Shown piece by piece: positions 1 through 13,396 of a stretch of DNA of 39,646 nt. Both the position numbers and the translations under genes were made by a program. The DNA is from Enterobacteria phage IME10. Each line of letters begins with the position of its first letter. The stretch's first letter is position 1. The notes beneath the pieces were generated by a model. That model ran no database searches. It worked only from the letters and a program-made list of their open reading frames with translations, and was not told the DNA's origin. Location of the stretch: sequence record JN600960.1; one strand, written 5' to 3'.

Positions 1-345
1 TCACCTGGTATCAACGTTGGCTACATTTTCGCTGATGCAGATGTCGCTCCGGATCCGGGCGATGAGCACGGTTTATCAAATAACGCTATCAATGCTGTCA
101 TTTTCAACCTTGCCTGCCGCATTGCACCGGATTATGCGCTGGAAGCGTCTGCAAAACTTATAACCACTGCCAGATACGGGAAAGAGCGACTCGTCAAACT
201 GTCTGCAATGGACAGAGCAAAAGCTGCTAAATGTAAGTCCGGTTATCCAAACCGTATGCCTGTTGGTAGCGGTAATCAGTTGGCGAAGTGGAACGGTTGG
301 AATTACTTCCACCGAAAGGAACCTTGCGATAACGGGAGCGAATAA
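1..345 (+). CDS. Head completion protein gp4, C-terminal portion (5' part lies at window end)
   Basis: Open frame from position 1 to TAA at 343-345, immediately followed by gp10 ATG at 346; position in P22 gene order. Confidence 0.7.
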   Translation, partial: SPGINVGYIFADADVAPDPGDEHGLSNNAINAVIFNLACRIAPDYALEASAKLITTARYGKERLVKLSAMDRAKAAKCKSGYPNRMPVGSGNQLAKWNGWNYFHRKEPCDNGSE

Positions 346-1764
346 ATGCCGATTCAGCAACTTCCGCTTATGAAAGGTGTCGGCAAAGACTTTCGAAACG
401 CTGACTATATCGACTATCTGCCAGTGAATATGTTGGCTACACCAAAAGAAATCCTTAACAGCAGCGGATATCTTCGCTCATTCCCGGGCATTGCCAAACG
501 TTCTGATGTGAACGGCGTATCGCGCGGCGTCGATTACAACATGGCGCAGAATGCTGTTTATCGTGTGTGTGGTGGCAAGCTGTACAAAGGAGAAAGTGAA
601 GTCGGTGACGTCGCCGGAAGTGGTCGCGTATCAATGGCGCATGGGCGGACATCACAGGCGGTAGGCGTTAATGGTCAACTGGTCGAACACCGCTATGATG
701 GCACGGTTAAAACCGTCTCAAACTGGCCTACGGACAGCGGATTCACGCAGTATGAGTTAGGTTCTGTTCGTGACATTACGCGCTTACGTGGGCGTTATGC
801 GTGGTCAAAAGACGGTACTGATTCATGGTTTATCACTGACCTTGAAGACGAATCACATCCTGACCGATACAGCGCACAATATCGTGCCGAGTCGCAGCCT
901 GACGGCATCATCGGAATCGGAACATGGCGAGACTTCATCGTCTGCTTTGGTTCATCGACGATTGAGTATTTTTCCCTGACTGGCGCAACCACCGTTGGTG
1001 CCGCTTTGTATGTCGCACAGCCATCACTGATGGTGCAAAAAGGCATCGCCGGGACTTACTGCAAAACGCCATTCGCTGATTCTTATGCGTTCATCAGCAA
1101 TCCGGCAACAGGTGCTCCGTCTGTATACATCATCGGATCCGGTCAGGTTTCACCAATCGCCAGCGCGAGCATTGAGAAAATCCTCCGCTCCTACACTGCT
1201 GATGAACTGGCTGATGGTGTGATGGAATCGCTGAGATTTGATGCTCATGAGTTGCTGATTATCCACCTTCCGCGCCATGTTCTCGTGTACGACGCATCTT
1301 CAAGCGCCAATGGTCCGCAATGGTGTGTGTTGAAAACTGGCTTGTATGACGATGTGTACCGCGCTATCGACTTCATTTACGAAGGCAATCAGATAACGTG
1401 CGGAGATAAGCTGGAATCGGTTACCGGCAAATTGCAGTTCGATATCAGCAGCCAGTACGACAAGCAGCAGGAACACCTGCTGTTTACTCCGTTGTTCAAA
1501 GCGGATAACGCCAGAGTTTTCGACCTTGAGGTTGAATCGTCAACTGGCGTTGCGCAGTACGCCGACCGCCTGTTCCTCTCTGCAACCACTGACGGCATAA
1601 ATTACGGTCGTGAGCAGATGATTGAGCAGAATGAACCGTTCGTTTACGACAAGCGTGTTTTGTGGAAGCGAGTCGGGCGCATCAGGAAAAATGTCGGCTT
1701 CAAATTGCGAGTTATCACGAAGTCACCTGTCACTCTGTCAGGCTGCCAGATAAGGATTGAGTAA
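346..1764 (+). CDS. Packaged-DNA stabilisation / head completion protein gp10
   Basis: 472 aa ORF, same length and position as P22 gp10. Confidence 0.8.
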
Positions 1765-2465
1765 TGGTTGATTCATCACTGAATGATCCTGTTGTGGTTC
1801 AGGCTACGCGCCTTGATGCTTCAATTTTGCCACGCAATATATTCAGCCAGTCTTACCTACTATATGTCATAAATCAGGGAGCTGATGTCGGTGCAATTGC
1901 TGGGAAGGCAAATCAGGCTGGCCAGGGCGCTTACGATGCTCAGGTGAAAAACGATGAACAGGACGTCGAACTGGCAGATCACGATGCAAGAATCACCGCA
2001 AACACAAAAGCGATAAATCTCCTTGAGGTCAGGTTAACAACTGCCGAAGGGAAGATAGTCGTACTGCGTAGCGATGTTGATTACTTGCTGGATGAGGTTA
2101 TCGATATTCAGGCGCATCTGGTCACTGTTGACCAAAGACTGGATGACGTAGAAAACGATGTCTCTGGCATTAAGAGTGATTACGTATCGAAAACCGTAAC
2201 AGAATCGCAGTCTCTTGCGTCACCGCTGGATGTAAAAACATCATATTCAGTTGATGGAATTCAGGTCGTTGGAGCAAGGCAGACCGGATGGACAGCGGCC
2301 ACAGGCACACCACTTCTTGGCTCATTCAACGCTAACCAGTCATACACGGTCGGCACTACGTACACACAATCCGAAGTCGCAGCTCTCGCTACAGGTTTGC
2401 AGCAGGCGCGGCAGCGTATTCTGGCGCTTGAAACAGCACTTAGATTACATGGGCTGATTGACTGA
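1764..2465 (+). CDS. Tail needle protein gp26
   Basis: 233 aa ORF, ATGA-type start overlap with gp10, coiled-coil-like middle, P22 gp26 length and position. Confidence 0.8.
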
Positions 2466-2920
2466 TGATTACATTCAAACCAACGCGAAACATCGACCTG
2501 ATAGAAGCAGTCGGAAATCACCCTGACATTATTGCCGGGAGCAACAACGGTGATGGATACGACTACAAGCCTGAATGCCGTTACTTTGAGGTTAACGTGC
2601 ACGGTCAGTTTGGCGGCATTGTTTACTATCAGGAGATTCAGCCGCTGACATTCGATTGCCACGCCATGTACCTGCCAGAGATTCGCGGCTTCAGCAAGGA
2701 AATCGGGCTGGCGTTCTGGCGATACATTCTGACTAACACCACCGTTCAGTGCGTCACATCGTTCGCTGCGCGCAAATTCCGCCACGGTCAGATGTACTGC
2801 GCAATGATTGGCCTTAAGCGTGTAGGAACCATCAAGAAATACTTCAAAGGCGTGGATGACGTGACGTTTTACAGCGCCACACGCGAAGAACTAATCGAAT
2901 TCCTGAATCACGGGAGATAG
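2465..2920 (+). CDS. Head assembly / ejection-associated protein gp14
   Basis: 151 aa ORF in the P22 gene 14 position, overlapping start with gp26 stop. Confidence 0.7.
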   Translation: MITFKPTRNIDLIEAVGNHPDIIAGSNNGDGYDYKPECRYFEVNVHGQFGGIVYYQEIQPLTFDCHAMYLPEIRGFSKEIGLAFWRYILTNTTVQCVTSFAARKFRHGQMYCAMIGLKRVGTIKKYFKGVDDVTFYSATREELIEFLNHGR

Positions 2921-2922
2921 CC

Positions 2923-3615
2923 ATGTTATATGCATTTAAGCTGGGCAGAAAACTGCGCGGCGAGGAACCTTATTGCCCTGAAAAAGGCGGGAAAGGTGGC
3001 AGCTCTGATAAAAGCGCAAAGTATGCAGCAGAAGCTCAGAAGTATGCCGCAGACCTGCAAAATCAGCAGTGGCAGACGATCATGAAAAACCTTGCTCCGT
3101 TCACGCCTCTTGCGGAGCAGTATGTTAACCAGCTTCAGAACCTTTCCAGTTTAGAAGGTCAGGGGCAGGCACTTAATCAGTATTACAACTCTCAGCAGTA
3201 TAAAGACCTTGCAGGTCAGGCTCGTTACCAGAGTCTTGCTGCTGCGGAGGCGACGGGGGGACTTGGTTCGACAGCCACAAGCAATCAACTGGCTACGATC
3301 GCGCCGACTCTCGGTCAGTCTTGGTTATCAAACCAGATGAGCAATTACAACAATCTGGCAAACGTTGGTCTTGGTGCTCTGCAAGGTCAGGCAAACGCTG
3401 GGCAGACATACGCCAACAACATGAGCAGCATTGCACAGCAAAGTGCAGCACTTGCCGCTGCTAATGCCAATAAACCATCAAGTCTTCAGACTGCAATTAG
3501 CGGTGGCACGTCTGGTGCGATTGCCGGTGCAGGTCTTGCCAGTCTTTTGGGAACATCAACGCCTTGGGGCGCTGGCATTGGTGCTGGTATCGGATTGCTT
3601 GGCTCGTTGTTTTAA
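2923..3615 (+). CDS. Ejection (internal virion) protein gp7
   Basis: 230 aa ORF with Gln/Ala/Gly-rich low-complexity C-terminus, P22 gp7 length and position. Confidence 0.75.
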   Translation: MLYAFKLGRKLRGEEPYCPEKGGKGGSSDKSAKYAAEAQKYAADLQNQQWQTIMKNLAPFTPLAEQYVNQLQNLSSLEGQGQALNQYYNSQQYKDLAGQARYQSLAAAEATGGLGSTATSNQLATIAPTLGQSWLSNQMSNYNNLANVGLGALQGQANAGQTYANNMSSIAQQSAALAAANANKPSSLQTAISGGTSGAIAGAGLASLLGTSTPWGAGIGAGIGLLGSLF

Positions 3616-3624
3616 GGGGTAATC

Positions 3625-4956
3625 ATGGCTACTTGGCAAGGAACAAACGGCGGATTGTTGGCTGGTATCGGCGGCGTCAACTCAAACGCTCCGAGCGTAA
3701 ATGACATCGGCAATACGCTTCAGCTTATCAGGCAGAACAATGATATTGAGCGTTCAGGCGCTAACAATGTTGGGCTGACTGCTTTGCAAGGCCTTTCAGG
3801 TATTGCGGGGGTGTTTCAGCAGGAAAAGCAGGCTCAGCGGCAGAAAGAATTTCAGCAGGCATACGCTAATGCTTATGCGTCTGGTGATCGCGGTGCTTTG
3901 CGTCAGTTGGCTACTCAATATCCAGACCAGATTGAATCCGTTCGTAAAGGCATGGGATTCATTGATGAAGAGCAGCGTAATTCTATCGGCACCTTAGCAG
4001 CTGGCGCACGCCTTGCGTCATCGTCTCCAGAAGCAATGCAATCATGGCTGCAAAACAACGCCGGTGAGTTAGATCGTGTTGGCGTTAATCCTCATGACGT
4101 CGCTCAGATGTACCAACAGAACCCGCGGCAGTTCGGCGAATTTGTCGATCACCTGGGGATGAACAGTCTCGGGCCCGAAAAATACTTTGACCTACAGGAT
4201 AAAATGCAGGGTCGCCAGGTTACCATGCGCGGTCAGGATCTGGATTCGCAAACCGCCGCTCGGAATCAGGCAATCACAATGCGCGGACAAGATATCCAGG
4301 CGGATTTAGGTCAGCAGCGCATTAATCTGGACGCAGAAACAAACCGCATTAACAACGAAAATAAGCGCCTTGACCGGATGCTATCAGCAGAAACTAACGA
4401 CCTGAAGCGCCAGGAAATACAGAGCCGCATAGCAGCCAACAACCAGCAGTTGCAGCAGAAGCAGCAAGCGCTAAATGATGGCTACAAAGACGGCATCAAC
4501 ACCCTCACAACCAGCATGTTCACTCTGAACGATATCGTTAGTTCTCCTTCACTTAAGAGCATTACAGGCTTACGTGGAGTAATCCCCAACGTTCCAGGCT
4601 CACAGGCTGCAGACACTCAGGCACGACTTGATACCTTTAAATCACAAGCATACCTGACAGCGGTTCAGGCCATGCGAGGCATGGGCGCACTTTCTGATGC
4701 CGAGGGCAAAAAGCTCGACCAGGCTGTTGGTTCGCTGCAGAACTCGCAGAGCGAGGAGTCCTTTCGTCGCAACGCTGGCGTCATCCTGAACACGCTCAAC
4801 CAGAAGCGTAATGAGGCGGTTGGTAAGTACGTTCAGCAAAACGGTATCAAGCGAGTGGAAGCGCCTCAGGCTTCTATAGATTACCTGAAGCAGCACCCCG
4901 AGCTGTCAATCGACTTCATTAATCGCTACGGATATCTTCCATCTTTGGGGCAGTAA
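3625..4956 (+). CDS. Ejection protein gp20
   Basis: 443 aa ORF between gp7 and gp16 homologs, coiled-coil-rich. Confidence 0.7.
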   Translation: MATWQGTNGGLLAGIGGVNSNAPSVNDIGNTLQLIRQNNDIERSGANNVGLTALQGLSGIAGVFQQEKQAQRQKEFQQAYANAYASGDRGALRQLATQYPDQIESVRKGMGFIDEEQRNSIGTLAAGARLASSSPEAMQSWLQNNAGELDRVGVNPHDVAQMYQQNPRQFGEFVDHLGMNSLGPEKYFDLQDKMQGRQVTMRGQDLDSQTAARNQAITMRGQDIQADLGQQRINLDAETNRINNENKRLDRMLSAETNDLKRQEIQSRIAANNQQLQQKQQALNDGYKDGINTLTTSMFTLNDIVSSPSLKSITGLRGVIPNVPGSQAADTQARLDTFKSQAYLTAVQAMRGMGALSDAEGKKLDQAVGSLQNSQSEESFRRNAGVILNTLNQKRNEAVGKYVQQNGIKRVEAPQASIDYLKQHPELSIDFINRYGYLPSLGQ

Positions 4957-7350
4957 ATGGCTAATTACCGTGATTTGTTAGAGCAGGCTGGCGCACGTTA
5001 CGGTGTGCCAGAAGGGTTGATGACTGCACTGGGTGCCAAGGAGTCTTCTTACAACCCTGCCGCAGTAAGCTCCGCCGGGGCTGTAGGATTGACTCAGGTC
5101 ATGCCTGGGACATGGCGTGATATGGGTTATACCGATGAGCAAATGCAAAACCCCGAATATCAGGCTGACGCTGGCGCGCGCTATCTGGCAAAGATGTACC
5201 AGCAGTTTGGTAACTGGCGTGACGCTCTTCAGGCTTATCACGACGGTCCCGGCAACGTTATGAAGGCAAAGCGTGGTGAATATACGCCAGGACCTGAAGG
5301 CCGCGGTTACGTTGATGATCGCTTTGCTCAATGGGCGGGTGACCCGGTGACAGACTCAACAGTCGAACAGCGCGCCACCTCTGCAAAGGTACATCCTCAG
5401 CAAGACCCTAACAACCCGTTTGCACAACTGGAAGCACAGTCATCCGAACAAGTATCGGCATCAGGCGTGCAGTCAGACCCAAATAATCCATTTGCTCAGA
5501 TTGAGCAGCAGGCAGCCAGTCAGCAGCCACCTCAACCCGTAAGTTCTGTCGCACCGAAACCTGTTCAGCAGCAAGGCGGAATAATGTCTGACCTTGGTAA
5601 TGGACTTGCTGAAACCGGGCGCGGCTTACTACAGGCAGGAATCAACGTAGCGAACATACCTGCTGAACTCACTGATGCTGTAACAAGCGCGGCGGCTTGG
5701 GCTGGCGGTAAACTCGGCATTGGCGATGGTACATATCAACCAGCGCCACGAGTAACAACGCAGGGATTAGAGCAGGACTTTGGCCTTCAGCAAGGCGCGC
5801 TGACTCCACAAACGACAGAGGGCAGGGTGTTTGCTGAAGCATTGCCTTACCTCACTCCTGCTGGCGTTGAGAGAGCGGCAGCACAGGCACCAACACTTGC
5901 TGGTCGAATTGCTCAGGGGGCAACTCGCCTTCTAGCAGAAAACGCAGTTGGATCACTTGCTGAAAATAGTGCGAAAGATGATGCGGAAGCACTCGCCACC
6001 GATTTAGGCGTTGGTGTGCTGGCTGGCGGTGCTATTAACGCTGCCGGACGTGGATTAGGTGCTGCTTATCGTGGCGTTCGTGGTGCTATTGCGCCAGAAG
6101 CGCAGCAGGCTATCAGATTTGCAGAGCGTGAAGGAGTTCCTCTGCACACCACAGACCTGTTACAGCCTACTTCCCGGGTCGGAAAAATGGCGCAGACTAC
6201 AGCAGAAAATATCCCTCTGGCTGGCACAAGCGGAATGAGAGCAACGCAACAGGAAGCGAGAAGCCAGTTGGTGCAGAGATTTGCTGATAAATTCGGCGAG
6301 TACGATCCGGCAGTTGTTATTGACAGCCTTAAAGCGAAAACATCAGGAATTCGTCGTGCTGCAGGGAGCCGTCTTGAGCAGGTTCAGAATGCAATGGCGG
6401 GAGTCAATATACAGCCTGCGCGAGCAATTCAGCAGATTGATACTGAGATATCTAATCTGCAGAAGCTTGGTAAGGTAGCTGATAACGAGACAATTTCAAA
6501 ACTTCAGTCATATCGTGATGAGCTTGTTCGCAATGCTGGCCCTGATGGTCCGGTAAATCTGGATTTGAAGCAATTAAGCGACCTGCGCAGCCAGTTCAGA
6601 ATGGACGTGAAGGGTGAGCGACCAGTGTTACCAAACCGTTCCGATGCCGCCATTCAGCGCGTTTACAAGGCAATGACTGACGATATCAATGGTGCCATTG
6701 GTCAGAATCTTGGCAACGATACTCTCCGTAAATATCAGCAGGCCAATGCCGTCTATGCTGACGAAGCGGCGAAACTAAAGAATACCAGGCTGAAGAATGT
6801 TCTCATGAAAGGCGACCTGACGCCGGAAGTTGTCAACAACATGCTATTCAGCAAGAACAAATCGGAAATTAAGACGCTGTATAACTCAGTTGGTCGCGTT
6901 GGCAGGGCGCAAATGCGCAATGGCATCATTGGAAAGGCGATGGAGAAATCAGGTGGTTCCCCTGACCAGTTCCTTCGGCAGCTTAATATTCTGCAAAACC
7001 AGACTGGCATCACATTTAAGGGGCAGGACGCTGCTTATCTGAAAGGATTAAAAAACTACCTGCAATCCACGCAGCAGGCAGCAAAAGCGGCAGTAACAAC
7101 ACCAACAGGGCAGCAAACCATCCCGTTTATTATCGGGTATGGGACGGCAATGAACCCGGCGACAACTGGCGCAGCAGTAAGCTACGGACTTCTTACTCGC
7201 GCCTATGAGAGCGAGCCATTCAGAAATGCAATGCTCCGAATGGCAAACACCCCACGCGGTTCAACAGCGTTTGAGAAAGCCATGCAGCAGGCACAAAAGG
7301 CAATTAACGCTATGACGCAGGGGGCTAAGTCTGATGCGTTGTCAGAATAG
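4957..7350 (+). CDS. Ejection protein gp16-like with N-terminal soluble lytic transglycosylase domain
   Basis: 797 aa; N-terminus has SLT-like motifs (GAKESSYNPAAVSSAGAVGLTQVMPGTW); position of P22 gene 16 but longer than my recollection of P22 gp16. Confidence 0.75.
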   Translation: MANYRDLLEQAGARYGVPEGLMTALGAKESSYNPAAVSSAGAVGLTQVMPGTWRDMGYTDEQMQNPEYQADAGARYLAKMYQQFGNWRDALQAYHDGPGNVMKAKRGEYTPGPEGRGYVDDRFAQWAGDPVTDSTVEQRATSAKVHPQQDPNNPFAQLEAQSSEQVSASGVQSDPNNPFAQIEQQAASQQPPQPVSSVAPKPVQQQGGIMSDLGNGLAETGRGLLQAGINVANIPAELTDAVTSAAAWAGGKLGIGDGTYQPAPRVTTQGLEQDFGLQQGALTPQTTEGRVFAEALPYLTPAGVERAAAQAPTLAGRIAQGATRLLAENAVGSLAENSAKDDAEALATDLGVGVLAGGAINAAGRGLGAAYRGVRGAIAPEAQQAIRFAEREGVPLHTTDLLQPTSRVGKMAQTTAENIPLAGTSGMRATQQEARSQLVQRFADKFGEYDPAVVIDSLKAKTSGIRRAAGSRLEQVQNAMAGVNIQPARAIQQIDTEISNLQKLGKVADNETISKLQSYRDELVRNAGPDGPVNLDLKQLSDLRSQFRMDVKGERPVLPNRSDAAIQRVYKAMTDDINGAIGQNLGNDTLRKYQQANAVYADEAAKLKNTRLKNVLMKGDLTPEVVNNMLFSKNKSEIKTLYNSVGRVGRAQMRNGIIGKAMEKSGGSPDQFLRQLNILQNQTGITFKGQDAAYLKGLKNYLQSTQQAAKAAVTTPTGQQTIPFIIGYGTAMNPATTGAAVSYGLLTRAYESEPFRNAMLRMANTPRGSTAFEKAMQQAQKAINAMTQGAKSDALSE

Positions 7351-7439: not shown

Positions 7440-7733
7440 TTAGCTACTGTCTTTTTTATATAGCTTCTTGAGCGTATCAAAGACAATTTTCTTAACCATA
7501 TCAGATTGTTGTTCTGCCATACGCTCTGCATCGTCAATGTAAACTGATGCAGAGCTTTGTTTATCCAATGATTCTTCAATCGCTGCAATTATCTCTGAGT
7601 TCAGCGACCTGTTATTCATCTTCGCGCGCTGTTTAATTTTCGCGTGGAGTTCATGCGGAAGTCTCAAGTGAAACTGCGCCTCGTCGTATTTGCTGTACAT
7701 CCTTGATGCCTCACCAGTTGGGTGGAATGGCAT
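7440..7733 (-). CDS. mnt: Mnt-like ribbon-helix-helix repressor
   Basis: 97 aa; C-terminal DAERMAEQQSDMVKKIVFDTLKKLYKK resembles P22 Mnt as I recall it; Arc/MetJ-type N-terminal region; lies between gene 16 and the tailspike as in P22 immI. Confidence 0.7.
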   Translation of the reverse strand: MPFHPTGEASRMYSKYDEAQFHLRLPHELHAKIKQRAKMNNRSLNSEIIAAIEESLDKQSSASVYIDDAERMAEQQSDMVKKIVFDTLKKLYKKDSS

Positions 7734-7773: not shown

Positions 7774-7796
7774 ATGCAATCACATCATGATTGCAT
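7774..7796. promoter_or_regulatory. Candidate Mnt operator: perfect 9-bp inverted repeat ATGCAATCA-N5-TGATTGCAT
   Basis: Palindrome read directly in the mnt-tailspike intergenic region, about 25 bp upstream of the tailspike start. Confidence 0.4.
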
Positions 7797-7821
7797 CATA
7801 TCATTCGTCTGGAGCAATGAA

Positions 7822-9642
7822 ATGTCAGATATCACCGCAAATGTTGTGGTAAGCATGCCTTCGCAACTATTCACTATGGCGCGTTCTTTTAAAGCCGTAG
7901 CCAATGGAAAAATTTATATCGGTAAAATTGACACTGACCCGGTAAATCCTGAAAACCAGATTCAGGTTTATGTGGAAAACGAAGACGGTTCTCACGTTCC
8001 TGTTGCACAGCCAATCATCATTAACGCTGCTGGTTACCCTGTATATAATGGACAGATTGCCAAATTCGTAACTGTGCAAGGCCATTCGATGGCTGTATAC
8101 GATGCGTATGGTGTGCAGCAGTTTTATTACCCGAATGTGCTGAAGTATGACCCTGATCAGTTGGAGCAACGATTGTCTTCACCTGGTGGCGCAGTGTATA
8201 TAGGTGGCGTTGGTGGTGGAAATTTATCCCAAATAATAAATGCGGTATCTCCAGAACAGTTCGGAGCAGTAGGAGACGGATTCACTGATGATATTGAAGC
8301 TCTCGATGCTTGCATGGCTTTTGCGAGAGAAAAACCATTAGACATTATATTTAGTAAGACATACGCAATTTCACGTCCTTATGTTATTTACATGGGAAAT
8401 AAAAAAAATCCTCGCCATATTGGTCAAGGGTCCATGGCGAAAATAATATTAACCACAACAACAAAATCTGGATTGGGTAGTGACTCATACGGTACTGATT
8501 TGAATGTAAACGCAGCTGTTATTGTAGCCGCGATCACAGGTACAGGGCATAACCAACAACCCCAGAACTTTCGGTGGGAAAACATTGACCTTGACACCAC
8601 TGTAGATGCAGATTACGGCATGTACACGTCAAAAATGCAGTCCGCGGCAGTCAGTAATTTCAGGACGTATAATTTCAAGACAGGTATTCAGGATAACGGT
8701 TCCTGGAATACGTTGTATGAAAACATTAAGATGTCTGCCCACTCCACCGTAGGTTTCCGTAAAAATGCTGGTACTAGTACTACTATCCGTAACTGTTACG
8801 TAGAGAAATCGAAAGTTGGTTATCGTGTTTACAGCGGATACTCTCAGATTGAAGGGTGTGCATGCGACACTAGCACTGATGTCTCGTATTGGATTGAAGG
8901 TAACCCAGTAGCTTTAAGTAGTGACAGCACGTTTTCTCTTGTGTCATGTGGCGCAGAGAATTCAGGGACGGCCGTGGTACGAATTACTGGGACACTAACA
9001 GCAAGTATTATCAACTTTCAATCATTTAATTGGTCACAACAGCAAGACCCGACACCAGATTGTTTCTTAGATATTCAGTCCAACACTGCTAGCATTTCAG
9101 TTGAAGAGGTCAGATATCTTGGTGTTGCTCGCAGGATAAAAGACACTGGAACAAACAACACAGTTATCATAAGAAATATGACGACTCGTGGTACAGATGT
9201 TAGAGATCAGGATACCTATCCAAATAGCACTAGAATTATTGAGCTTAATCATAACGGTGTGCGAGTAGCGACAGGTTACGATAAAAATGGGATTTTGATC
9301 ACTGAAGATAATATGACCGATTCAATCGGAAGTACTACATGGTCAAGGCTATTTAACAAACAAAAAATTTGGCGCTATAGGGGTATAGTAACAAGAACAA
9401 GCGGTCAGAGTTACGGAAGGTTACAGATCAATATTCCGTTCACTATGGCTGATAATAGTTATAGCGTTGCTATTACACCAGAAGTGTATCACACCGATAT
9501 GGCAACATATGGTTACCAATGTTCAGTAGGCCCAACTGATAAAACAACAACATCATTCTTCATCAACGTAAACTCTGGAACAGGTAACACGTCATGGAAC
9601 AGTATAGCTGTTGACGTAATTGTGATGGGGCTTTCTATCTAA
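7822..9642 (+). CDS. Tailspike protein: P22-type N-terminal head-binding domain plus a different beta-helix receptor-binding domain
   Basis: Start [11 protein letters not shown] with GGAG RBS 7 nt upstream; first ~115 aa closely resemble the P22 gp9 N-terminus as recalled; remainder differs and contains the [11 protein letters not shown] motif typical of pectate-lyase-like beta-helix depolymerases. Confidence 0.85.
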
Positions 9643-9886
9643 TTAATGTGTTGCGATGGAATTGGCTAATGTGATATATGCAATTCCATCACTTCATTGT
9701 ATGCGGTTGATGACATGTGATATTTGTAATTAGATTAATAATAACTAAGTTTACTATACAGAAAGGAGGTTATATTGCTCTACTACATGGTATGCCATGA
9801 TATAAAATGTGATCTATATCTCAAGTTGCTTATTTATTATTTCCATGCTAAGATAAATTCCCGTTAATAATTATATTATATCTTCT

Positions 9887-11353
9887 ATGAGAAATATGAA
9901 ATTACTCTCAAAAAGACTAGTGGTAATTGTATGTTCTGTATTTATCCTTTCAATTATATTGTGCATACATTTAAGAAAGGGAAACTTTAACCTCAATAAT
10001 ATAAGTAGCGTACAAAATGCTAATGACATATCAACAACCAATAGTATATTGAATGATGATTTAGTGTTTTCCGAAAGATATGATTCCCTTTTTTATTACT
10101 TCGTGCATTCGTTTGTTAAATATTCTTCAGATGATTATGCTCTTGTTAATTATCCTGGGATGCTATCGACGAGTGGGAATAAGACAAACCAAGTTGAGGG
10201 TACGGCAAGGACGCTACCATTAATTGCTGCATGGGTTTATTCTGGAAGAGATTCAACCATTATCGTTAATGGTAATAAGTTAAATATAGTAGATCTGATT
10301 AGGAGTAGTATATTGTCTGGAACTAATCCAAGTTCTGTAAACTATTGGGGGGATATACATGATTATGATCAGAGAATTTTAGAGGCCGCAGATATAGTAA
10401 GAGTCTTATGGCTTACAAAAAAAGAGATATGGAATCACTTAAAAGATAATGAAAAAAATCAGATAGCTTTGTGGCTGGAGCAAGCTGCATCGGCGAAAAC
10501 TGTAAAAAACAATTGGCTACTAGCTCCATTCATAATTCAGAATTTTTTGCAGGATAATGGATATACAGTTAAGGTTAATTACAAAAATTACACAGACTTT
10601 AAGAAAAACTATCTTGAACACGGATGGTTTAGAGATGGAAATGATGGAGAAGTAGATTTCTATAATACTTGGGGTATATCCTATGACTTATTCTGGATAT
10701 CACTTATTACAGATTATGATAATGCTTTTATACTAAAAACACTATCTGAGTCGGCTGATTTCACTTCACATTTAATATCTAAAAATGGCATCCCGCTTGT
10801 TGGTAGAAGTATTTGCTACAGGACTGCAGCACCCACACCTGTTCTAATTGAAGGTCTATTAAAAAATGATGGATATCATCAAGGTTTAGCAAAATCAGCA
10901 TTAGACTATACGTGGAAATATTTTGCAAGCCACAATGCATTAGTATCAGATACATTATCAATGGGGTATTTTAATAATGACAAGCGCTTTGTTGATAATT
11001 ATAGCGGGTCAGGAAGTTGCCTGTGGGGAATAAGGTCGTTAGTTGTCGCTTATATGAATGATAAAAAATCATATATCTGGAATGGGAAATATGAGAGATT
11101 GCCTATTGATAATTCTGATTTCATTATCAATGCAGATAAACTTGGTTGGATAGTTGAGGGTAATAAAGATAGTGGAGAGATAAGGGTTATTATACCTGCA
11201 AACGAAAAAAACTCACCAAAGATAAATGATACCAATAAACTTAAAGAAGTTATATGGAGAGTTCTTGGTAAAGCAGGAAGAACTAATCAACATGACATTG
11301 AGTACCTAAAGCCATATTACTCATCACTAGAGCCTATATCTGACGTTGAGTGA
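9887..11353 (+). CDS. AT-rich cargo gene: membrane-anchored protein of unknown function (N-terminal TM helix, ~450 aa extracytoplasmic domain)
   Basis: 488 aa ORF with visibly lower GC than flanks; hydrophobic N-terminal segment LVVIVCSVFILSIILCI; sits between tailspike and attP/int, the classical lysogenic-conversion slot of P22-like phages. Confidence 0.6.
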   Translation: MRNMKLLSKRLVVIVCSVFILSIILCIHLRKGNFNLNNISSVQNANDISTTNSILNDDLVFSERYDSLFYYFVHSFVKYSSDDYALVNYPGMLSTSGNKTNQVEGTARTLPLIAAWVYSGRDSTIIVNGNKLNIVDLIRSSILSGTNPSSVNYWGDIHDYDQRILEAADIVRVLWLTKKEIWNHLKDNEKNQIALWLEQAASAKTVKNNWLLAPFIIQNFLQDNGYTVKVNYKNYTDFKKNYLEHGWFRDGNDGEVDFYNTWGISYDLFWISLITDYDNAFILKTLSESADFTSHLISKNGIPLVGRSICYRTAAPTPVLIEGLLKNDGYHQGLAKSALDYTWKYFASHNALVSDTLSMGYFNNDKRFVDNYSGSGSCLWGIRSLVVAYMNDKKSYIWNGKYERLPIDNSDFIINADKLGWIVEGNKDSGEIRVIIPANEKNSPKINDTNKLKEVIWRVLGKAGRTNQHDIEYLKPYYSSLEPISDVE

Positions 11354-11388
11354 TAACTTTATATTAATTGTTATTTGACATATGTTTT

Positions 11389-11409
11389 AAGGTGGCATTA
11401 TGCCACCTT
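11389..11409. terminator. Bidirectional intrinsic terminator hairpin between the convergent cargo gene and int
   Basis: Perfect inverted repeat AAGGTGGCA-TTA-TGCCACCTT followed by TT; overlaps the int stop codon. Confidence 0.5.
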
Positions 11410-12591
11410 TTCATCAAGCCAGTCCGCCCACCACTGCATCATTTCTCTGCGCTTATCGAGATACTGAGCATGGTTGTAAATCCCACGCACAGATCCGCCG
11501 TTGGCATGTGCCAGTTGCACTTCAATAGCGTCAGCAGGCCATTCGTGCTCGTTCATAATTGTGCTGAATTCATGCCTGAATCCGTGACCGCTTTCCAGAC
11601 CCTCATAGCCGATTTGTTTGATCACAAGCAATACTGCGTTCTCGCAGATTGGCTTCTTCTTATCGTTGCGCCCGGCAAAAACAAACTCTGATACTGGTTT
11701 AGTGATTGAGCTTAGTGTAGTGAGAAGTTCAACTACCTGGTCTGACATAGGAACCACATGAATTTTGCGTCCCTTCATCACACTGGCGTCAATGGTGATA
11801 ATCATGTTTTCAAAATCGACGTTCTTCCATTGCATGGAACGAAGCTCTTTTGTTCTGAGGGCTGTGTAGCGTAAAACTTTTGTCGCAATGAGCGATACGA
11901 TACTTCCTGAAAATGTTGCAAGTGCTTTGTTGAATGCCGGGATCTGGTCGGCAGGAAGAAACGGGAAGTTCTTCTTGCGGTATCCCTTCATGGCGTCAGC
12001 AAGGTCAGGTGCCGGGTTATATTTAGCCCTGCCGGTGACAATAGCGTAACGGAAAACCTCGCCGCATCTTCTGCGTGCTTTGTTGGCTCGCTCCATTGCA
12101 CCGCGATCTTCAAATCTGCGGATTACTTCCAGCAGTTGCATCGGCTCAATATCCAGAATCTCAAGGCCGCCGATGATAGGTAAAATGTCGTCATCAAACA
12201 TTTTTGCAAGTTCAGTCGCATACCCTACTGACCAGACTTGCTTCTTGTGCTCGTACCATTCCTTGTAAATCGCACTAAAGGAATTGTTGTTAGACGAAGC
12301 CTTTTTCGCTTTTACCGGATCGATGCCAACCGAGATGTCTTTCCTCGCGGTCCATGCTTTATCTCTTGCCTCCTGCAAAGTCATTAGCGGATATTTTCCT
12401 ACGGTCAGGATTTTCTCCTTACCGTCAATCTTGTAGCGAAGCTGCCATACCTTTTTCCCTGACACAGGGACATAAAGGTACAGGCCATTACCATCGAGTA
12501 GGCGGTATGGTTTTTCTTTCGGCTTTGCTGCTTCAATCTGCTTAACGGTGAGCATGGGTAAAAATCCGGTGGGTAAAATTATTTTATCCAC
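11398..12591 (-). CDS. int: Tyrosine integrase, P4-like (DUF4102-type N-terminal arm-binding domain)
   Basis: C-terminal catalytic motifs HGFRHEFST and GIYNHAQY; N-terminal LTVKQIEAAKPKEKPYRL; annotated start is GTG at 12591, a more likely ATG start (MLTVKQ) is at 12555. Confidence 0.9.
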   Translation of the reverse strand: MDKIILPTGFLPMLTVKQIEAAKPKEKPYRLLDGNGLYLYVPVSGKKVWQLRYKIDGKEKILTVGKYPLMTLQEARDKAWTARKDISVGIDPVKAKKASSNNNSFSAIYKEWYEHKKQVWSVGYATELAKMFDDDILPIIGGLEILDIEPMQLLEVIRRFEDRGAMERANKARRRCGEVFRYAIVTGRAKYNPAPDLADAMKGYRKKNFPFLPADQIPAFNKALATFSGSIVSLIATKVLRYTALRTKELRSMQWKNVDFENMIITIDASVMKGRKIHVVPMSDQVVELLTTLSSITKPVSEFVFAGRNDKKKPICENAVLLVIKQIGYEGLESGHGFRHEFSTIMNEHEWPADAIEVQLAHANGGSVRGIYNHAQYLDKRREMMQWWADWLDEKVA

Positions 12592-12600: not shown

Positions 12601-12716
12601 GTCATGGAGTGCGGCTGTCAACGATCTGAAGCGAACCATGACGAACTGTAAATCTACGGAAGGCTTGATATTCAGGGGATTTTGCGGACTGGTACGGATG
12701 AGAGCGAACTGATAAA

Positions 12717-12731
12717 TGGTGTCCCCTGCAG
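12717..12731 (-). other. Candidate attP core matching the 3' end of tRNA-Arg (argW)
   Basis: Minus strand reads CTGCAGGGGACACCA, which matches the 3' end of E. coli argW including CCA as I recall it; lies between int and xis and is flanked by CAGGGGATT direct repeats (12673, 12749). Confidence 0.45.
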
Positions 12732-12790: not shown

Positions 12791-12810
12791 TTTTACCCGC
12801 TATTTTACCC
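12791..12810. repeat. Two direct TTTTACCC octamers, candidate arm-type sites
   Basis: TTTTACCC at 12791-12798 and 12803-12810, overlapping the xis stop. Confidence 0.35.
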
Positions 12811-13005
12811 ATTGGCGCGGCTTAAGAGCTTATTTTTGAATTCACAATGGTCACGATATAACCATCTTGCTCGCCCGTGGATAACTTTGGCTTTAGGCAG
12901 GTCCCCGGACTTAATCCGGTCATAGATGAAGGTTTTACCGAAGCCAGTATCGGCCATGATGAATTTCAAATCAACCAGTGAATCAGGCTGTAGTTCGTGT
13001 TGCAT
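12805..13005 (-). CDS. xis: AlpA-family excisionase / transcriptional regulator
   Basis: 66 aa; winged-HTH sequence DLKFIMADTGFGKTFIYDRIKSGDLPKAKV typical of AlpA/Xis partners of P4-type integrases. Confidence 0.75.
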   Translation of the reverse strand: MQHELQPDSLVDLKFIMADTGFGKTFIYDRIKSGDLPKAKVIHGRARWLYRDHCEFKNKLLSRANG

Positions 13006-13070: not shown

Positions 13071-13149
13071 GCGATGGTAGGTCTGGATATCTTGAGAAAT
13101 GAACTGGCCTCATCGAGTGTGAGGCGGTGTGATTTCTTTATTTCCACTC

Positions 13150-13365
13150 TTAATGTTTGTCAGTGAATGGTTTCTCCATCTCCATTAATGCCTTATTCAT
13201 CTCATTTCGTAACTCTATAGCCATCCTGACGGCTTCAACTTGTGCAGGATGTCGGTTAATTGCTGGAGAATATCGTCGGGAACGAAGGATTGAGAAAACA
13301 AAGATAATGCAAGCAACTATCTGAATTGCATTGCATGTTATTGATACAATGTGAATTGCAGCCAT
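13150..13365 (-). CDS. Small membrane protein (71 aa), unknown function
   Basis: Hydrophobic N-terminus IVSITCNAIQIVACIIFVFSIL followed by a basic tail; bracketed by two intrinsic terminators. Confidence 0.5.
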   Translation of the reverse strand: MAAIHIVSITCNAIQIVACIIFVFSILRSRRYSPAINRHPAQVEAVRMAIELRNEMNKALMEMEKPFTDKH

Positions 13366-13373
13366 CTACTACC

Positions 13374-13396
13374 CCCAAAAAAACCGCCATCAGGCG
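13374..13396 (-). terminator. Intrinsic terminator
   Basis: Minus strand CCGCC-TGAT-GGCGG followed by T7, immediately upstream of the 71-aa gene. Confidence 0.55.

What the first reader, a model, noticed from the sequence alone, without database searches (positions are those of the whole stretch)
9643..11400. AT-rich cargo gene for a 488-aa membrane-anchored protein in the tailspike-attP conversion slot
The segment is visibly much more AT-rich than the flanking phage genes, with AAA/AAT/ATA-rich codon usage, which points to recent horizontal acquisition. It encodes a protein with one N-terminal transmembrane anchor and a large extracytoplasmic domain of about 450 aa. It sits exactly where P22-like phages carry lysogenic-conversion genes (gtrABC, oac), but it is not a multi-pass acyltransferase and not a GtrA/B/C-type protein. 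It has its own AT-rich upstream region with a 10-bp inverted repeat (GATGGAATTG...CAATTCCATC, 9656-9690) around a putative promoter, and is insulated downstream by a bidirectional terminator. I cannot assign a family. Plausible roles are modification or degradation of a surface polysaccharide, or superinfection exclusion at the envelope.
Basis: partly seen in the sequence, partly recalled or inferred. Interest (0 to 1): 0.75.

Follow-up and report, generated by a model that had tools for sequence, protein, structure and literature searches.

The report
Phage-borne membrane-anchored uronate dehydratase homologue
An Sf6-like E. coli phage carries, where its relatives keep O-antigen-modifying genes, a rare AT-rich gene for a membrane-anchored enzyme of the DUF2264/"GH154" glucuronate-dehydratase family, which probably edits an acidic surface sugar polymer of the host in a way not yet described for phages.

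Summary
The ORF (9887-11353, 488 aa) is real. It is the most AT-rich stretch of the genome (33.5% vs 48.2% GC) and has one N-terminal hydrophobic helix. It sits between the tailspike and integrase, where phage Sf6 carries oac.

The protein belongs to an uncharacterised, membrane-anchored subfamily. In Proteobacteria, Flavobacteriia and Cyanobacteria this subfamily lies mostly inside Wzx/Wzy polysaccharide-synthesis clusters (36 of 56 loci), not in catabolic GH88 loci. Diverged alleles (62-65% identity, dN/dS about 0.12) occupy the same slot in other E. coli prophages and a ColE1-type plasmid.

The gene is rare: 1 of 5,426 complete E. coli genomes, no INPHARED phage, and only this contig in IMG/VR.

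Best reading: a periplasm-facing uronate C4-C5 eliminase acting as a lysogenic-conversion enzyme. Substrate, expression and phenotype are untested. The inverted repeat, promoter and "bidirectional" terminator are weak.

The parts
9887..11353 (+). Cargo gene: 488-aa DUF2264/BcGDH-family protein (alternative start 9896 gives 485 aa); stop codon 11351-11353
   Evidence: ORF; PF10022 E=3e-63, 214.5 bits; PGAP 'DUF2264 domain-containing protein' in CUVM53; exact protein P0132 seen on 48 contigs
9917..9973 (+). Codons for the N-terminal hydrophobic segment (residues 11-29), read as a signal anchor
   Evidence: Kyte-Doolittle 3.03; AF2 helix 2-31; absent from cytoplasmic GH88-linked homologues
10088..11092 (+). 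(alpha/alpha)-barrel catalytic domain (residues 68-402), with Y259 (10661-10663), R307 (10805-10807) and Y311 (10817-10819)
11093..11350 (+). Small C-terminal beta-rich domain (residues 403-488), shared with the 485-aa catabolic enterobacterial homologues
   Evidence: AF2 strands 412-435 and 477-479; alignment
9643..9886 (+). 28.7% GC intergenic region. It holds the inverted repeat 9655-9664/9681-9690 and a Shine-Dalgarno sequence (9763-9769) followed by a 30-codon upstream ORF (TTG 9775 to stop 9865-9867)
   Evidence: no promoter-like hit on the plus strand
11389..11409 (+). GC-rich hairpin (AAGGTGGCAT/ATGCCACCTT) with a U4 tail on the plus strand: probable terminator of the cargo gene. Its right arm is the 3' end of int and marks the right edge of the variable module
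   Evidence: homology to Sf6 and to allele-2 prophages resumes at 11403-11405
7822..9642 (+). Tailspike: head-binding domain (to about 8160) plus a receptor-binding domain that is non-homologous to Sf6 and forms the left part of the variable module
   Evidence: PF09008; PHROG 8280; homology to Sf6 ends at 8162; receptor-binding domain 68.5% identical to a tail protein of phage vB_Ec-G1
11398..12555 (-). IntS-type tyrosine integrase
   Evidence: Pfam integrase domains; 96.8% identical to the Sf6 int region; annotated intS in CUVM53
12716..12731 (.). attP core ATGGTGTCCCCTGCAG (argW tRNA-Arg site)
   Evidence: Identical to the annotated Sf6 attP core; the prophage junction in CUVM53 falls here
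12805..13005 (-). Xis/TorI-like excisionase
   Evidence: ORF; homologous position to Sf6 TorI and CUVM53 torI

Best explanation
The gene is a horizontally acquired lysogenic-conversion-type cargo ('moron') of an Sf6-like temperate coliphage. It encodes a single-pass inner-membrane protein whose roughly 455-residue domain faces the periplasm. That domain is a bona fide member of the DUF2264/BcGDH family, formerly called GH154.

The characterised members of this family (B. caccae BcGDH and B. thetaiotaomicron BT3677) abstract H5 of a beta-D-glucuronate residue and eliminate the O4 substituent, giving a delta-4,5-unsaturated uronate. The phage protein keeps this catalytic apparatus: the Tyr base Y259, the Arg R307 and the Tyr acid Y311.

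It belongs to an uncharacterised, membrane-anchored subfamily that in many bacterial phyla is encoded inside Wzx/Wzy-dependent polysaccharide-synthesis clusters.

Proposed mechanism (inferred): in the lysogen the enzyme acts at the periplasmic face on a uronic-acid-bearing surface glycan. The target could be O-antigen, colanic acid, ECA or capsule, either as lipid-linked repeat units or as nascent polymer. I favour dehydration of an exposed non-reducing or side-branch uronate to an unsaturated 'cap'. Lyase-type removal of a 4-linked substituent is the alternative. Either reaction would change the epitope or receptor seen by tailspike-bearing phages.

Shown here: family, fold, catalytic residues, N-terminal anchor, slot, foreignness, purifying selection and the genomic company of the subfamily. 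Inferred: topology, substrate, reaction outcome, expression in the lysogen and phenotype.
For: Family and fold:
- PF10022 at 214.5 bits against a cut-off of 25.
- PDB sequence hits to the beta-D-glucuronate dehydratase 9O4U/9NWF (E 1e-10) and to 8OI4.
- AF2 model with pLDDT 96.1 and pTM 0.94.

Active site: of the ten BcGDH residues whose alanine mutants were inactive (PMC12269599), nine are identical: E104, R108, N208, N209, W210, Y259, R307, Y311 and Y372. F181 is replaced by A213. R108, Y259, R307, Y311 and Y372 are invariant in 118 homologues.

Anchor: the hydrophobic helix is present in 81 of 118 subfamily members. It is absent from the 30-35% identical enterobacterial and Vibrio homologues that sit next to GH88, PL8, chondroitinase-type lyases, sulfatases and PTS genes. 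Subfamily-specific Cys310 (118/118) and Cys378 (109/118) fit an oxidising compartment.

Genomic company of the subfamily:
- Four of six inspected contigs lie in Wzx/GT/Wzy/Wzz clusters.
- Among 134 nearest ORFs of 41 loci: GT1/GT4 20, Wzy_C 10, GDP-Man dehydratase/epimerase 7, Hexapep 5, Wzx 3, GT2 3, Acyl_transf_3 3, UDP-sugar dehydrogenase 2. No GH88, GH105 or PL family is in the top 25.
- 36 of 56 loci have at least one GT, Wzx or Wzy within 8 kb, across Alpha-, Beta- and Gammaproteobacteria, Flavobacteriia, Cyanobacteria and Gemmatimonadota.
- 8 of 56 loci carry a uronic-acid-forming UDP-sugar 6-dehydrogenase.

Slot and mobility:
- It is the slot that holds oac in Sf6; the related phage Hf4s carries a functional gtr seroconversion cluster, whose position I did not check.
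- The variable module (8163-11404) comprises the tailspike receptor-binding domain plus the cargo.
- A 65%-identical allele sits in the same slot next to an unrelated receptor-binding domain.
- A 62% allele sits on a ColE1-type plasmid.

Selection and retention: dN/dS is 0.12 between alleles 1 and 2. The gene is retained intact in the IS1-eroded CUVM53 prophage remnant.
Against: - No experiment exists on any member of the membrane-anchored subfamily.
- No substrate is identified in E. coli, and the host O-type is unknown.
- No convincing promoter was found.
- The gene is co-oriented with the late operon and no canonical terminator follows the tailspike gene. Expression could therefore be late and lytic rather than lysogenic.
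- Topology rests on hydropathy and charge only.
- F181 of BcGDH is alanine here.
- 20 of 56 subfamily loci show no polysaccharide-synthesis neighbours, and 8 positive flavobacterial loci share one conserved cluster, so they are not independent.
- A common variant of allele 2 has lost its signal sequence through a 10-nt deletion.
- The gene is very rare, so any benefit is narrow.
- The characterised relatives are catabolic, about 18% identical, and work with GH88, which the phage lacks.
Confidence: 0.5

Rival explanations
1. Polysaccharide lyase. The same Tyr/Arg/Tyr machinery eliminates a glycosidic substituent at O4 of an internal or side-chain uronate. This would trim side chains, as xanthan lyase does, or shorten or clear polymer in the periplasm, as AlgL does in alginate synthesis. 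The result would be receptor destruction or chain-length control rather than a capped terminal residue. This rival overlaps the best explanation in everything except the leaving group.
For: - The chemistry differs only in the leaving group; PMC12269599 itself likens the mechanism to the alginate lyase Alg17C.
- Weaker fold matches are to PL8 hyaluronate and xanthan lyases, PL35 and heparinase-type lyases.
- From general knowledge, synthesis clusters often encode a periplasmic lyase or glycanase.
- One subfamily gene overlaps a beta-helix (NosD/Beta_helix) gene.
Against: - The only assayed family members act on terminal saturated GlcA and showed no depolymerising activity.
- The residues that hold the terminal GlcA are conserved.
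Confidence: 0.2
2. Late-expressed lytic-cycle function. The gene is read through from the tailspike (late) transcript and acts during infection, for example to strip or alter receptor glycan on the dying cell so that progeny are not trapped. On this reading it is not a lysogenic-conversion function.
For: - The gene has the same orientation as the late operon.
- The hairpin after the tailspike stop has no U-tract, and the scan found neither a terminator nor a promoter between the genes.
- Sf6 oac, by contrast, is on the opposite strand with its own promoter.
Against: - The gene is retained intact in a defective prophage remnant that has lost its late genes.
- It is also carried by a ColE1-type plasmid with no phage context.
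- An inner-membrane anchor suits action on nascent glycan better than action on cell debris.
Confidence: 0.1
3. Uronate C5-epimerase. After H5 abstraction the enolate is reprotonated from the other face (GlcA to IdoA, or ManA to GulA) at polymer level, as AlgG or dermatan-sulfate epimerase do. This would be a tailoring step natural for a synthesis cluster.
For: - From general knowledge, lyases and epimerases share the first chemical step.
- The subfamily has a biosynthetic context.
Against: - The Tyr that protonates the O4 leaving group (Y289 in BcGDH, Y311 here) is invariant.
- Similarity to 6HZN is at generic (alpha/alpha)-toroid level.
- No family member is known to epimerise.
Confidence: 0.07
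4. Nutrient-acquisition moron. The enzyme is a catabolic uronate dehydratase that helps the lysogen use host glycosaminoglycan fragments, like the GH88-linked DUF2264 genes on enterobacterial plasmids.
For: - Characterised members are catabolic.
- 30-35% identical homologues in E. coli, Citrobacter and Yersinia plasmids, S. houtenae and Vibrio sit in GAG-degradation clusters. The enterobacterial ones have GH88, PL8 and PTS genes. The Vibrio one has chondroitinase-family lyases and sulfatases but no GH88.
Against: - No GH88, GH105, lyase or transporter partner is present in the window (ORF map).
- The phage protein belongs to the anchored subfamily, whose neighbours are synthesis genes rather than catabolic genes.
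- The catabolic homologues lack the anchor.
Confidence: 0.05
5. Silent or non-functional passenger, or a non-enzymatic envelope protein (SieA-like exclusion). On this reading the AT-rich DNA is simply hitch-hiking or is H-NS-silenced.
For: - The gene is very rare.
- No promoter was found.
- There is no PADLOC or PHROG match.
- A signal-less deletion variant of allele 2 circulates.
Against: - A 1.46-kb intact ORF persists in 33% GC DNA.
- dN/dS is 0.12 between alleles.
- The catalytic residues are invariant.
- The gene recurs in three mobile contexts.
Confidence: 0.08

Closest known systems
[quoted passage not shown]
   Different: Only about 18% identity. The phage protein has an N-terminal membrane anchor and an extra C-terminal beta domain. 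F181 is replaced by Ala, and two subfamily-specific Cys are present. There is no GH88 or PUL partner. Its subfamily lives in synthesis clusters, not degradation clusters. Activity is untested.
Oac of phage Sf6 (O-antigen acetylase); GtrABC of P22, SfV, Hf4s and CPS-53 are the same kind of function, and CUS-3 NeuO is recalled from knowledge only
   Same: Same genomic slot between tailspike and int as Sf6 oac, in a phage whose backbone is 97% identical to Sf6 over half of a 24-kb query. Gtr modules of related phages serve the same role, though I did not check where they lie. All are AT-rich, envelope-directed cargo linked to tailspike specificity.
   Different: Unrelated protein family and predicted chemistry: elimination at a uronate rather than acetyl or glucosyl transfer. 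The protein is single-pass rather than multi-pass. The gene is on the same strand as the late operon. No conversion phenotype has been shown.
GH88-linked DUF2264 proteins of enterobacterial GAG-utilisation islands (e.g. WP_052750737 on E. coli IncFIB plasmids; S. houtenae SEHO0A_04607)
   Same: 30-32% identity over 82% of the length, the same 485-aa two-domain architecture and the same catalytic residues.
   Different: They have no hydrophobic N-terminus and lack C378. They are flanked by GH88, PL8, an autotransporter and an Aga-type PTS, which is a catabolic and probably cytoplasmic setting.
Periplasmic polymer-processing enzymes encoded in exopolysaccharide synthesis clusters (AlgL, and xanthan lyase as a chemical analogue); from general knowledge
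   Same: An envelope-located uronate-eliminating enzyme encoded among GT, Wzx and Wzy genes. There is weak fold similarity to PL8 xanthan and hyaluronate lyases.
   Different: Different families (PL5, PL8). There is no evidence that the DUF2264 subfamily cleaves polymers.

Membership tests
DUF2264 / BcGDH (Pfam PF10022; former CAZy GH154) | Match to the family HMM above the curated gathering score | tested here: met
   214.5 bits against a cut-off of 25, E=3e-63, residues 68-402 on profile positions 8-350 of 353
DUF2264 / BcGDH (Pfam PF10022; former CAZy GH154) | (alpha/alpha)-barrel fold of the solved members | tested here: met
DUF2264 / BcGDH (Pfam PF10022; former CAZy GH154) | Catalytic triad Y229 / R285 / Y289 and the conserved substrate-binding residues of BcGDH | tested here: met
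   Y259, R307 and Y311 are identical and invariant in 118 homologues. Nine of ten mutated active-site residues are identical; F181 is replaced by A213
DUF2264 / BcGDH (Pfam PF10022; former CAZy GH154) | Beta-glucuronate 4,5-dehydratase activity (A232 increase, -18 Da product) | not testable with these tools
   Biochemical assay needed. Only BcGDH and BT3677 have been assayed
DUF2264 / BcGDH (Pfam PF10022; former CAZy GH154) | Co-localisation with an unsaturated uronyl hydrolase (GH88/GH105). This is typical of characterised members but not strictly defining | tested here: not met
   No such gene in the window. None among the top 25 families of 134 neighbours of subfamily members. Present next to the more distant enterobacterial homologues
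Lysogenic (serotype) conversion module of P22/Sf6-like phages | Cargo located between the tailspike gene and int/attP, foreign in composition | tested here: met
   Order tailspike-cargo-int-attP-xis, as for Sf6 oac; 33.5% against 48.2% GC
Lysogenic (serotype) conversion module of P22/Sf6-like phages | Product acts at the envelope (membrane or periplasmic topology) | tested here: inconclusive
   Single N-terminal hydrophobic helix with four basic residues before it. No topology predictor or experiment was available
Lysogenic (serotype) conversion module of P22/Sf6-like phages | Expressed from the prophage; changes O-antigen or capsule structure and phage adsorption | not testable with these tools
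   No promoter beyond chance. Needs transcript mapping, LPS/CPS analysis and plating tests
Gtr (GtrA/GtrB/GtrC) or Oac/Acyl_transf_3 conversion proteins | Pfam GtrA, GT2 or Acyl_transf_3 domains; multi-pass membrane protein | tested here: not met
   Only PF10022 was found. There is one hydrophobic segment
Polysaccharide lyase families (PL8, PL15/17, PL35, heparinase II/III) | Sequence or close structural membership | tested here: not met
Known anti-phage defence / superinfection-exclusion proteins | Match to a PADLOC or PHROG family | tested here: not met
   0 PADLOC families and 0 PHROGs

The most novel reading that the evidence does not exclude
This would be the first phage-encoded surface-glycan editor that works by elimination chemistry. 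A membrane-anchored uronate 4,5-dehydratase or lyase would convert a glucuronate-type residue of the lysogen's O-antigen, capsule or colanic acid into an unsaturated, 4-deoxy 'cap', or clip what is attached at O4. That would be a new chemical class of serotype conversion alongside acetylation, glucosylation, phosphoethanolamine addition and polymerase switching. It would also show that the anchored DUF2264 subfamily is a widespread, unrecognised periplasmic tailoring or processing enzyme of Wzx/Wzy polysaccharide pathways across several bacterial phyla.
Probability: 0.3. Interest if true: 0.75.

Novelty: new variant of a known kind. Interest (0 to 1): 0.55.

Why it matters
Serotype-converting phages shape O-antigen diversity, vaccine escape and phage-therapy host range. 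All well-described conversion chemistries add a group or change the polymerisation linkage. An eliminase in the conversion slot would add a new way to rewrite a receptor.

The finding also gives a tractable E. coli handle on a large, uncharacterised branch of the just-reclassified GH154/DUF2264 family. That branch sits next to Wzy, Wzx and glycosyltransferase genes in marine flavobacteria, rhizobia, methylotrophs and cyanobacteria. This suggests that unsaturated uronate ends, or enzyme-set chain processing, may be a native feature of many exopolysaccharides.

If the gene proves inactive in E. coli, the result is still useful: the 'unassignable' protein is a clear family member and only an ordinary, rare moron.

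Tried and rejected
- PHROGs, NCBIfam and PADLOC gave no family for the protein.
- INPHARED phages: no DNA match. By tblastn there were only three distant non-phage-like hits at 30% identity or less.
- IMG/VR peptide-pattern scan returned only the window's own contig.
- BFVD viral structures: nothing at E<=1e-3.
- E. coli complete genomes: allele 1 in 1 of 5,426 by megablast and by blastn; allele 2 in none.
- Literature: 'DUF2264' gave 0 papers. 'PF10022' gave only Plasmodium gene identifiers. A search for native hex-4-enuronic ends in exopolysaccharides was unproductive. I found no paper on a phage DUF2264.
- Promoter and terminator scans were at shuffle level. The inverted repeat is not enriched window-wide. 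I therefore dropped the 'operator or promoter framed by the inverted repeat' idea.
- Colanic acid as the receptor: this rests only on the label of PHROG 8280 for the tailspike. The NST1 and J8-65 colanidases did not appear among the top tblastn hits. It remains a lead, not evidence.
- Catabolic reading: rejected as the main explanation because partner genes are absent and the subfamily differs.
- Typing the O-antigen of the CUVM53 host was considered and not pursued, since annotation alone cannot reveal GlcA content.
- The C310-C378 distance and the shape of the pocket behind O4 could not be measured, because model coordinates are not exposed.
- The first attempt to compare L002, L004 and L008 in Python failed because several loci share one file. 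It was repeated successfully.
Full report
WHAT IS THERE. The window is a complete Sf6-like (Lederbergvirus-type) temperate phage genome. 53% of a 24-kb query aligns to Shigella phage Sf6 at 97.6%. The ORF map shows the usual late, tail, integration and early blocks. The finding is an intact ORF at 9887-11353 (+), 488 aa. NCBI's pipeline starts the same gene at the second ATG, 9896, giving 485 aa.

The ORF is the most AT-rich part of the genome. Its GC is 33.5% (GC3 26.8%) against 48.2% for the rest, which is 5.4 SD below other windows of the same size. The global minimum falls at 9661.

The gene lies between the tailspike (7774/7822-9642; Pfam Head_binding, PHROG 8280) and the IntS-type integrase (11398-12555, minus strand). 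The Sf6 attP core ATGGTGTCCCCTGCAG follows at 12716-12731, then a TorI-like excisionase at 12805-13005. In Sf6 the same position holds oac, the O-antigen acetylase. The related phage Hf4s carries a functional gtr seroconversion cluster.

MODULE BOUNDARIES. Homology to Sf6 and to two other prophages stops at about 8160, the end of the tailspike head-binding domain. It resumes at 11403-11405, the last codons of int. The variable module is thus the tailspike receptor-binding domain plus the cargo gene. The right boundary falls inside a GC-rich hairpin (11389-11398/11400-11409, -14 kcal/mol). That hairpin has a U4 tail on the plus strand only, so it is a plausible terminator for the cargo gene. 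It is not a demonstrated bidirectional one, and the terminator scan did not call it.

The upstream inverted repeat exists at 9655-9664/9681-9690. Perfect 10-nt inverted repeats occur 4 times in the window against 2.4 +/- 2.1 expected. No plus-strand promoter-like site was found in 9643-9886.

The 2025 JBC paper on BcGDH (PMC12269599) shows that this family, formerly CAZy GH154, is not a glycosidase family. [quoted passage not shown] The proposed mechanism is lyase-like and uses Y229 as base, R285, and Y289 as acid. I mapped the ten residues whose alanine mutants were inactive onto the phage protein, using chain index +5 checked at five motifs. This gives E104, R108, N208, N209, W210, A213 (for F181), Y259, R307, Y311 and Y372. 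Nine of ten are identical. R108, Y259, R307, Y311 and Y372 are invariant in all 118 homologues. The catalytic apparatus for C5 proton abstraction and O4 elimination is therefore intact.

A DISTINCT, ANCHORED SUBFAMILY. Residues 11-29 form the only strongly hydrophobic segment (Kyte-Doolittle 3.03; the next best is 0.94). They are preceded by four basic residues. 81 of 118 homologues at 35-65% identity have such a segment, and many of the rest look like truncated gene calls.

The next-nearest enterobacterial and Vibrio relatives (30-35% identity) have the same two-domain body but no hydrophobic N-terminus. The enterobacterial ones sit between a GH88 unsaturated glucuronyl hydrolase, a PL8 lyase, an autotransporter and an Aga-type PTS. 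The Vibrio one sits among chondroitinase-family lyases, sulfatases and sugar-catabolism genes. All are glycosaminoglycan-catabolic islands. The anchored subfamily also carries two conserved cysteines, C310 (118/118) and C378 (109/118). The E. coli plasmid homologue has serine at both positions, and the Vibrio homologue keeps the first cysteine but has serine at the second. This fits an extracytoplasmic location, though it does not prove one.

GENOMIC COMPANY. Four of six contigs examined for 40%-identical homologues place the gene among a Wzx flippase, GT2/GT4 glycosyltransferases, WecG, Wzy, acyl- and acetyltransferases, Wzz-type co-polymerase or exosortase genes. Two do not.

A scan of 100,044 species-representative genomes returned 65 loci. 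Of the 134 nearest ORFs (two per side, 41 loci), 20 are GT1/GT4 and 10 are Wzy_C. A further 7 are GDP-mannose-dehydratase or epimerase type, 5 hexapeptide acetyltransferases, 3 Wzx and 3 GT2. There are also 3 Acyl_transf_3, 2 UDP-sugar dehydrogenases and 2 MBOAT. No GH88, GH105 or PL family appears in the top 25.

With home-made profiles, 36 of 56 loci have at least one GT, Wzx or Wzy within 8 kb, and 23 have two or more kinds. The positive loci are spread over Alpha- (7/13), Beta- (5/6) and Gammaproteobacteria (6/10), Flavobacteriia (11/13), Cyanobacteria (5/8) and Gemmatimonadota. Eight flavobacterial loci share one conserved GT-Wzy-DUF2264-acetyltransferase cluster and are not independent. 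Eight of 56 loci encode a UDP-sugar 6-dehydrogenase, the enzyme that makes uronic acids. The subfamily's usual home is therefore surface-polysaccharide synthesis, often uronate-related, and not degradation.

DISTRIBUTION IN ENTEROBACTERIA AND VIRUSES. The exact protein (P0132) occurs on 48 short contigs. Near-identical copies are named 'DUF2264 domain-containing protein [Escherichia coli]'.

Only 1 of 5,426 complete E. coli genomes has the gene: pig isolate CUVM53. There an IS1-eroded prophage remnant at argW/yfdC retains int, the intact cargo gene and a 3' tailspike fragment. The cargo differs from the window by two synonymous changes.

A second allele (65% amino-acid and 71% nucleotide identity; P0135, 87 contigs) sits in the same tailspike-int slot. 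It is paired with an unrelated receptor-binding domain that ends in a Peptidase_S74 chaperone. It is absent from the complete-genome set. A third allele (62%) is on a circular ColE1-type plasmid of about 6.7 kb with RNAI, Rop and a 111-nt terminal overlap. It is also reported from Klebsiella.

All three alleles are 33-35% GC in 47-54% GC surroundings. dN/dS between alleles 1 and 2 is 0.12, with dS saturated.

No INPHARED phage has a close homologue. IMG/VR, with 2.9 million contigs, returns only this contig. BFVD has no structural match at E<=1e-3. No representative genome of Enterobacterales carries the clade. The donor is unknown.

HOW IT MOST LIKELY WORKS. The following are shown: family, fold, catalytic residues, a single N-terminal anchor, the conversion slot, foreign composition, purifying selection, recurrence on three kinds of mobile element, and a synthesis-cluster home for the subfamily.

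The mechanism is inferred. The protein inserts as a signal-anchored inner-membrane protein with its barrel in the periplasm. This is the same compartment in which Oac, GtrC-type transferases and Wzy act on undecaprenyl-linked repeat units and nascent polymer (general knowledge). There it binds a glucuronate-type residue and carries out C4-C5 elimination.

I favour dehydration of an exposed terminal or side-branch uronate to an unsaturated 4-deoxy cap, because the only assayed relatives do exactly this and the residues holding the terminal sugar are conserved. The same machinery would be a lyase if O4 carries a sugar, and I cannot exclude that. Either outcome would alter the glycan that tailspike phages read, which is what cargo in this slot does in Sf6 and what the conversion cluster of Hf4s does. 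Overall confidence is about 0.5. Confidence in family membership is above 0.95.

RIVALS. These are:
- a polymer-trimming lyase (0.2, overlapping the best explanation);
- a late, read-through-expressed lytic function (0.1). The gene is co-oriented with the late operon and no canonical terminator intervenes. However, it survives in a prophage remnant and on a plasmid;
- a C5-epimerase (0.07);
- a catabolic moron (0.05). This lacks partner genes and belongs to the wrong subfamily;
- a silent passenger or non-enzymatic exclusion protein (0.08). This is disfavoured by the intact ORF in AT-rich DNA, dN/dS of 0.12 and invariant catalytic residues.

COMPARISON AND NOVELTY. The protein is a member of DUF2264/BcGDH: the HMM, fold and catalytic-residue tests were all met. 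Activity is untestable here, and GH88 co-localisation, which is typical rather than defining, was not met. It works like a conversion enzyme by position only; expression and phenotype are untested. It is not a Gtr, Oac, PL-family or known defence protein.

I found no literature on DUF2264 in phages or in synthesis clusters. I rate it a new variant of a known kind: a familiar conversion slot with an enzyme family and predicted chemistry not previously seen there, belonging to an uncharacterised branch of a family whose true activity was recognised only in 2025. Interest is moderate (0.55). The gene is rare and its function is inferred. It is nonetheless cheaply testable, and it points to an unrecognised step in Wzx/Wzy polysaccharide pathways.

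Noticed in passing
window 9763-9867: A strong Shine-Dalgarno sequence (AAGGAGG, 9763-9769) is followed 5 nt later by TTG and a 30-codon ORF (LLYYMVCHDIKCDLYLKLLIYYFHAKINSR). The ORF ends about 20 nt before the cargo ATG. It could be a leader peptide or small protein, or chance in AT-rich DNA.
   Followed up: partly
L002 9970-10003; proteins P0002, P0146 vs P0135, P0147: A circulating variant of allele 2 (474 aa, on 27 + 14 contigs) appears, by comparison with the intact P0135/P0147 sequence, to have a 10-nt deletion between short direct repeats at a T-run. The deletion removes the signal or anchor sequence. The intact 486/488-aa form is on 87 + 9 contigs. This may be inactivation or an on/off switch.
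   Followed up: partly
L008 (ENA ERZ27315492 k141_9540), 1-6786: A circular ColE1-type plasmid of about 6.67 kb (RNAI at 73.7 bits, Rop, 111-nt terminal overlap) has as its only obvious cargo a 491-aa anchored DUF2264 gene. The gene is 34.7% GC against 54.4% for the rest. A member of the same protein cluster lies on a 6,681-nt Klebsiella pneumoniae contig.
   Followed up: partly
L001 (E. coli CUVM53, NZ_CP116976.1 1588148-1613905): The prophage at argW is a remnant. Two IS1 copies flank what is left of the early region, and the late genes are gone. Even so, int, the DUF2264 gene and a 648-nt 3' fragment of the tailspike persist at 97.8% identity to the window.
   Followed up: yes
window 8250-9642 (tailspike receptor-binding domain): The receptor-binding domain is 68.5% identical to a tail protein of the 151-kb Escherichia phage vB_Ec-G1 and only about 34% identical to other tailspikes. 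This suggests exchange of receptor-binding domains between a P22-like podovirus and a large phage. The PHROG label 'colanic acid degradation' is unverified for this protein.
   Followed up: partly
window 7774-7821: The tailspike ORF has a 16-codon N-terminal extension ([16 protein letters not shown]). Homology to the head-binding domain starts at M17 (7822), which is the likely true start.
   Followed up: partly
window 13073-13377: Relative to Sf6 there is an insertion of about 300 nt between xis and the next early gene. It holds a 71-aa ORF (13150-13365, minus strand) with a hydrophobic N-terminal half, which may be a second small membrane moron.
   Followed up: no
L018 (E. coli IncFIB plasmid NZ_CP081686.1), L019 (S. 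houtenae), L020 (Vibrio navarrensis plasmid): A mobile glycosaminoglycan-utilisation island (DeoR, Aga-type PTS, GH88, DUF2264, PL8, autotransporter) occurs on 86-kb E. coli plasmids, on Citrobacter and Yersinia plasmids and in the S. houtenae chromosome. A chondroitinase and sulfatase version occurs on a Vibrio plasmid. The GH88-DUF2264 adjacency matches the dehydratase plus uronyl-hydrolase pairing described for B. caccae.
   Followed up: partly
L026 (SAAR01000759.1, 'Erysipelotrichia bacterium' MAG, 1515 nt): This is the only 'genome' hit above 45% identity. It belongs to the plasmid allele-3 cluster (P0149), so it is probably a mis-binned enterobacterial plasmid fragment.
   Followed up: partly
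window 7440-7733 (minus strand): This Arc/Mnt-like ribbon-helix-helix ORF has as its best PHROG (phrog_795) one labelled 'partition protein ATPase'. That label cannot be right for a 97-aa protein, so it looks like an annotation artefact in the library.
   Followed up: no
window 13539/13540; L025: The window is a rotation by 26,107 nt of IMG/VR contig IMGVR_UViG_2597489916_000001, which has the same length. int-attP-xis are contiguous, so the sequence is in the excised or circular form, not a prophage cut at att.
   Followed up: yes
window 7822-8210 (tailspike N-terminal region): PDB 6TGF, deposited as 'Exopolysaccharide biosynthesis protein' (736 aa), matches the tailspike N-terminal region (query residues 7-130, E 1.4e-11). 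It is a bacterial exopolysaccharide-cluster protein that shares this phage tailspike module.
   Followed up: no
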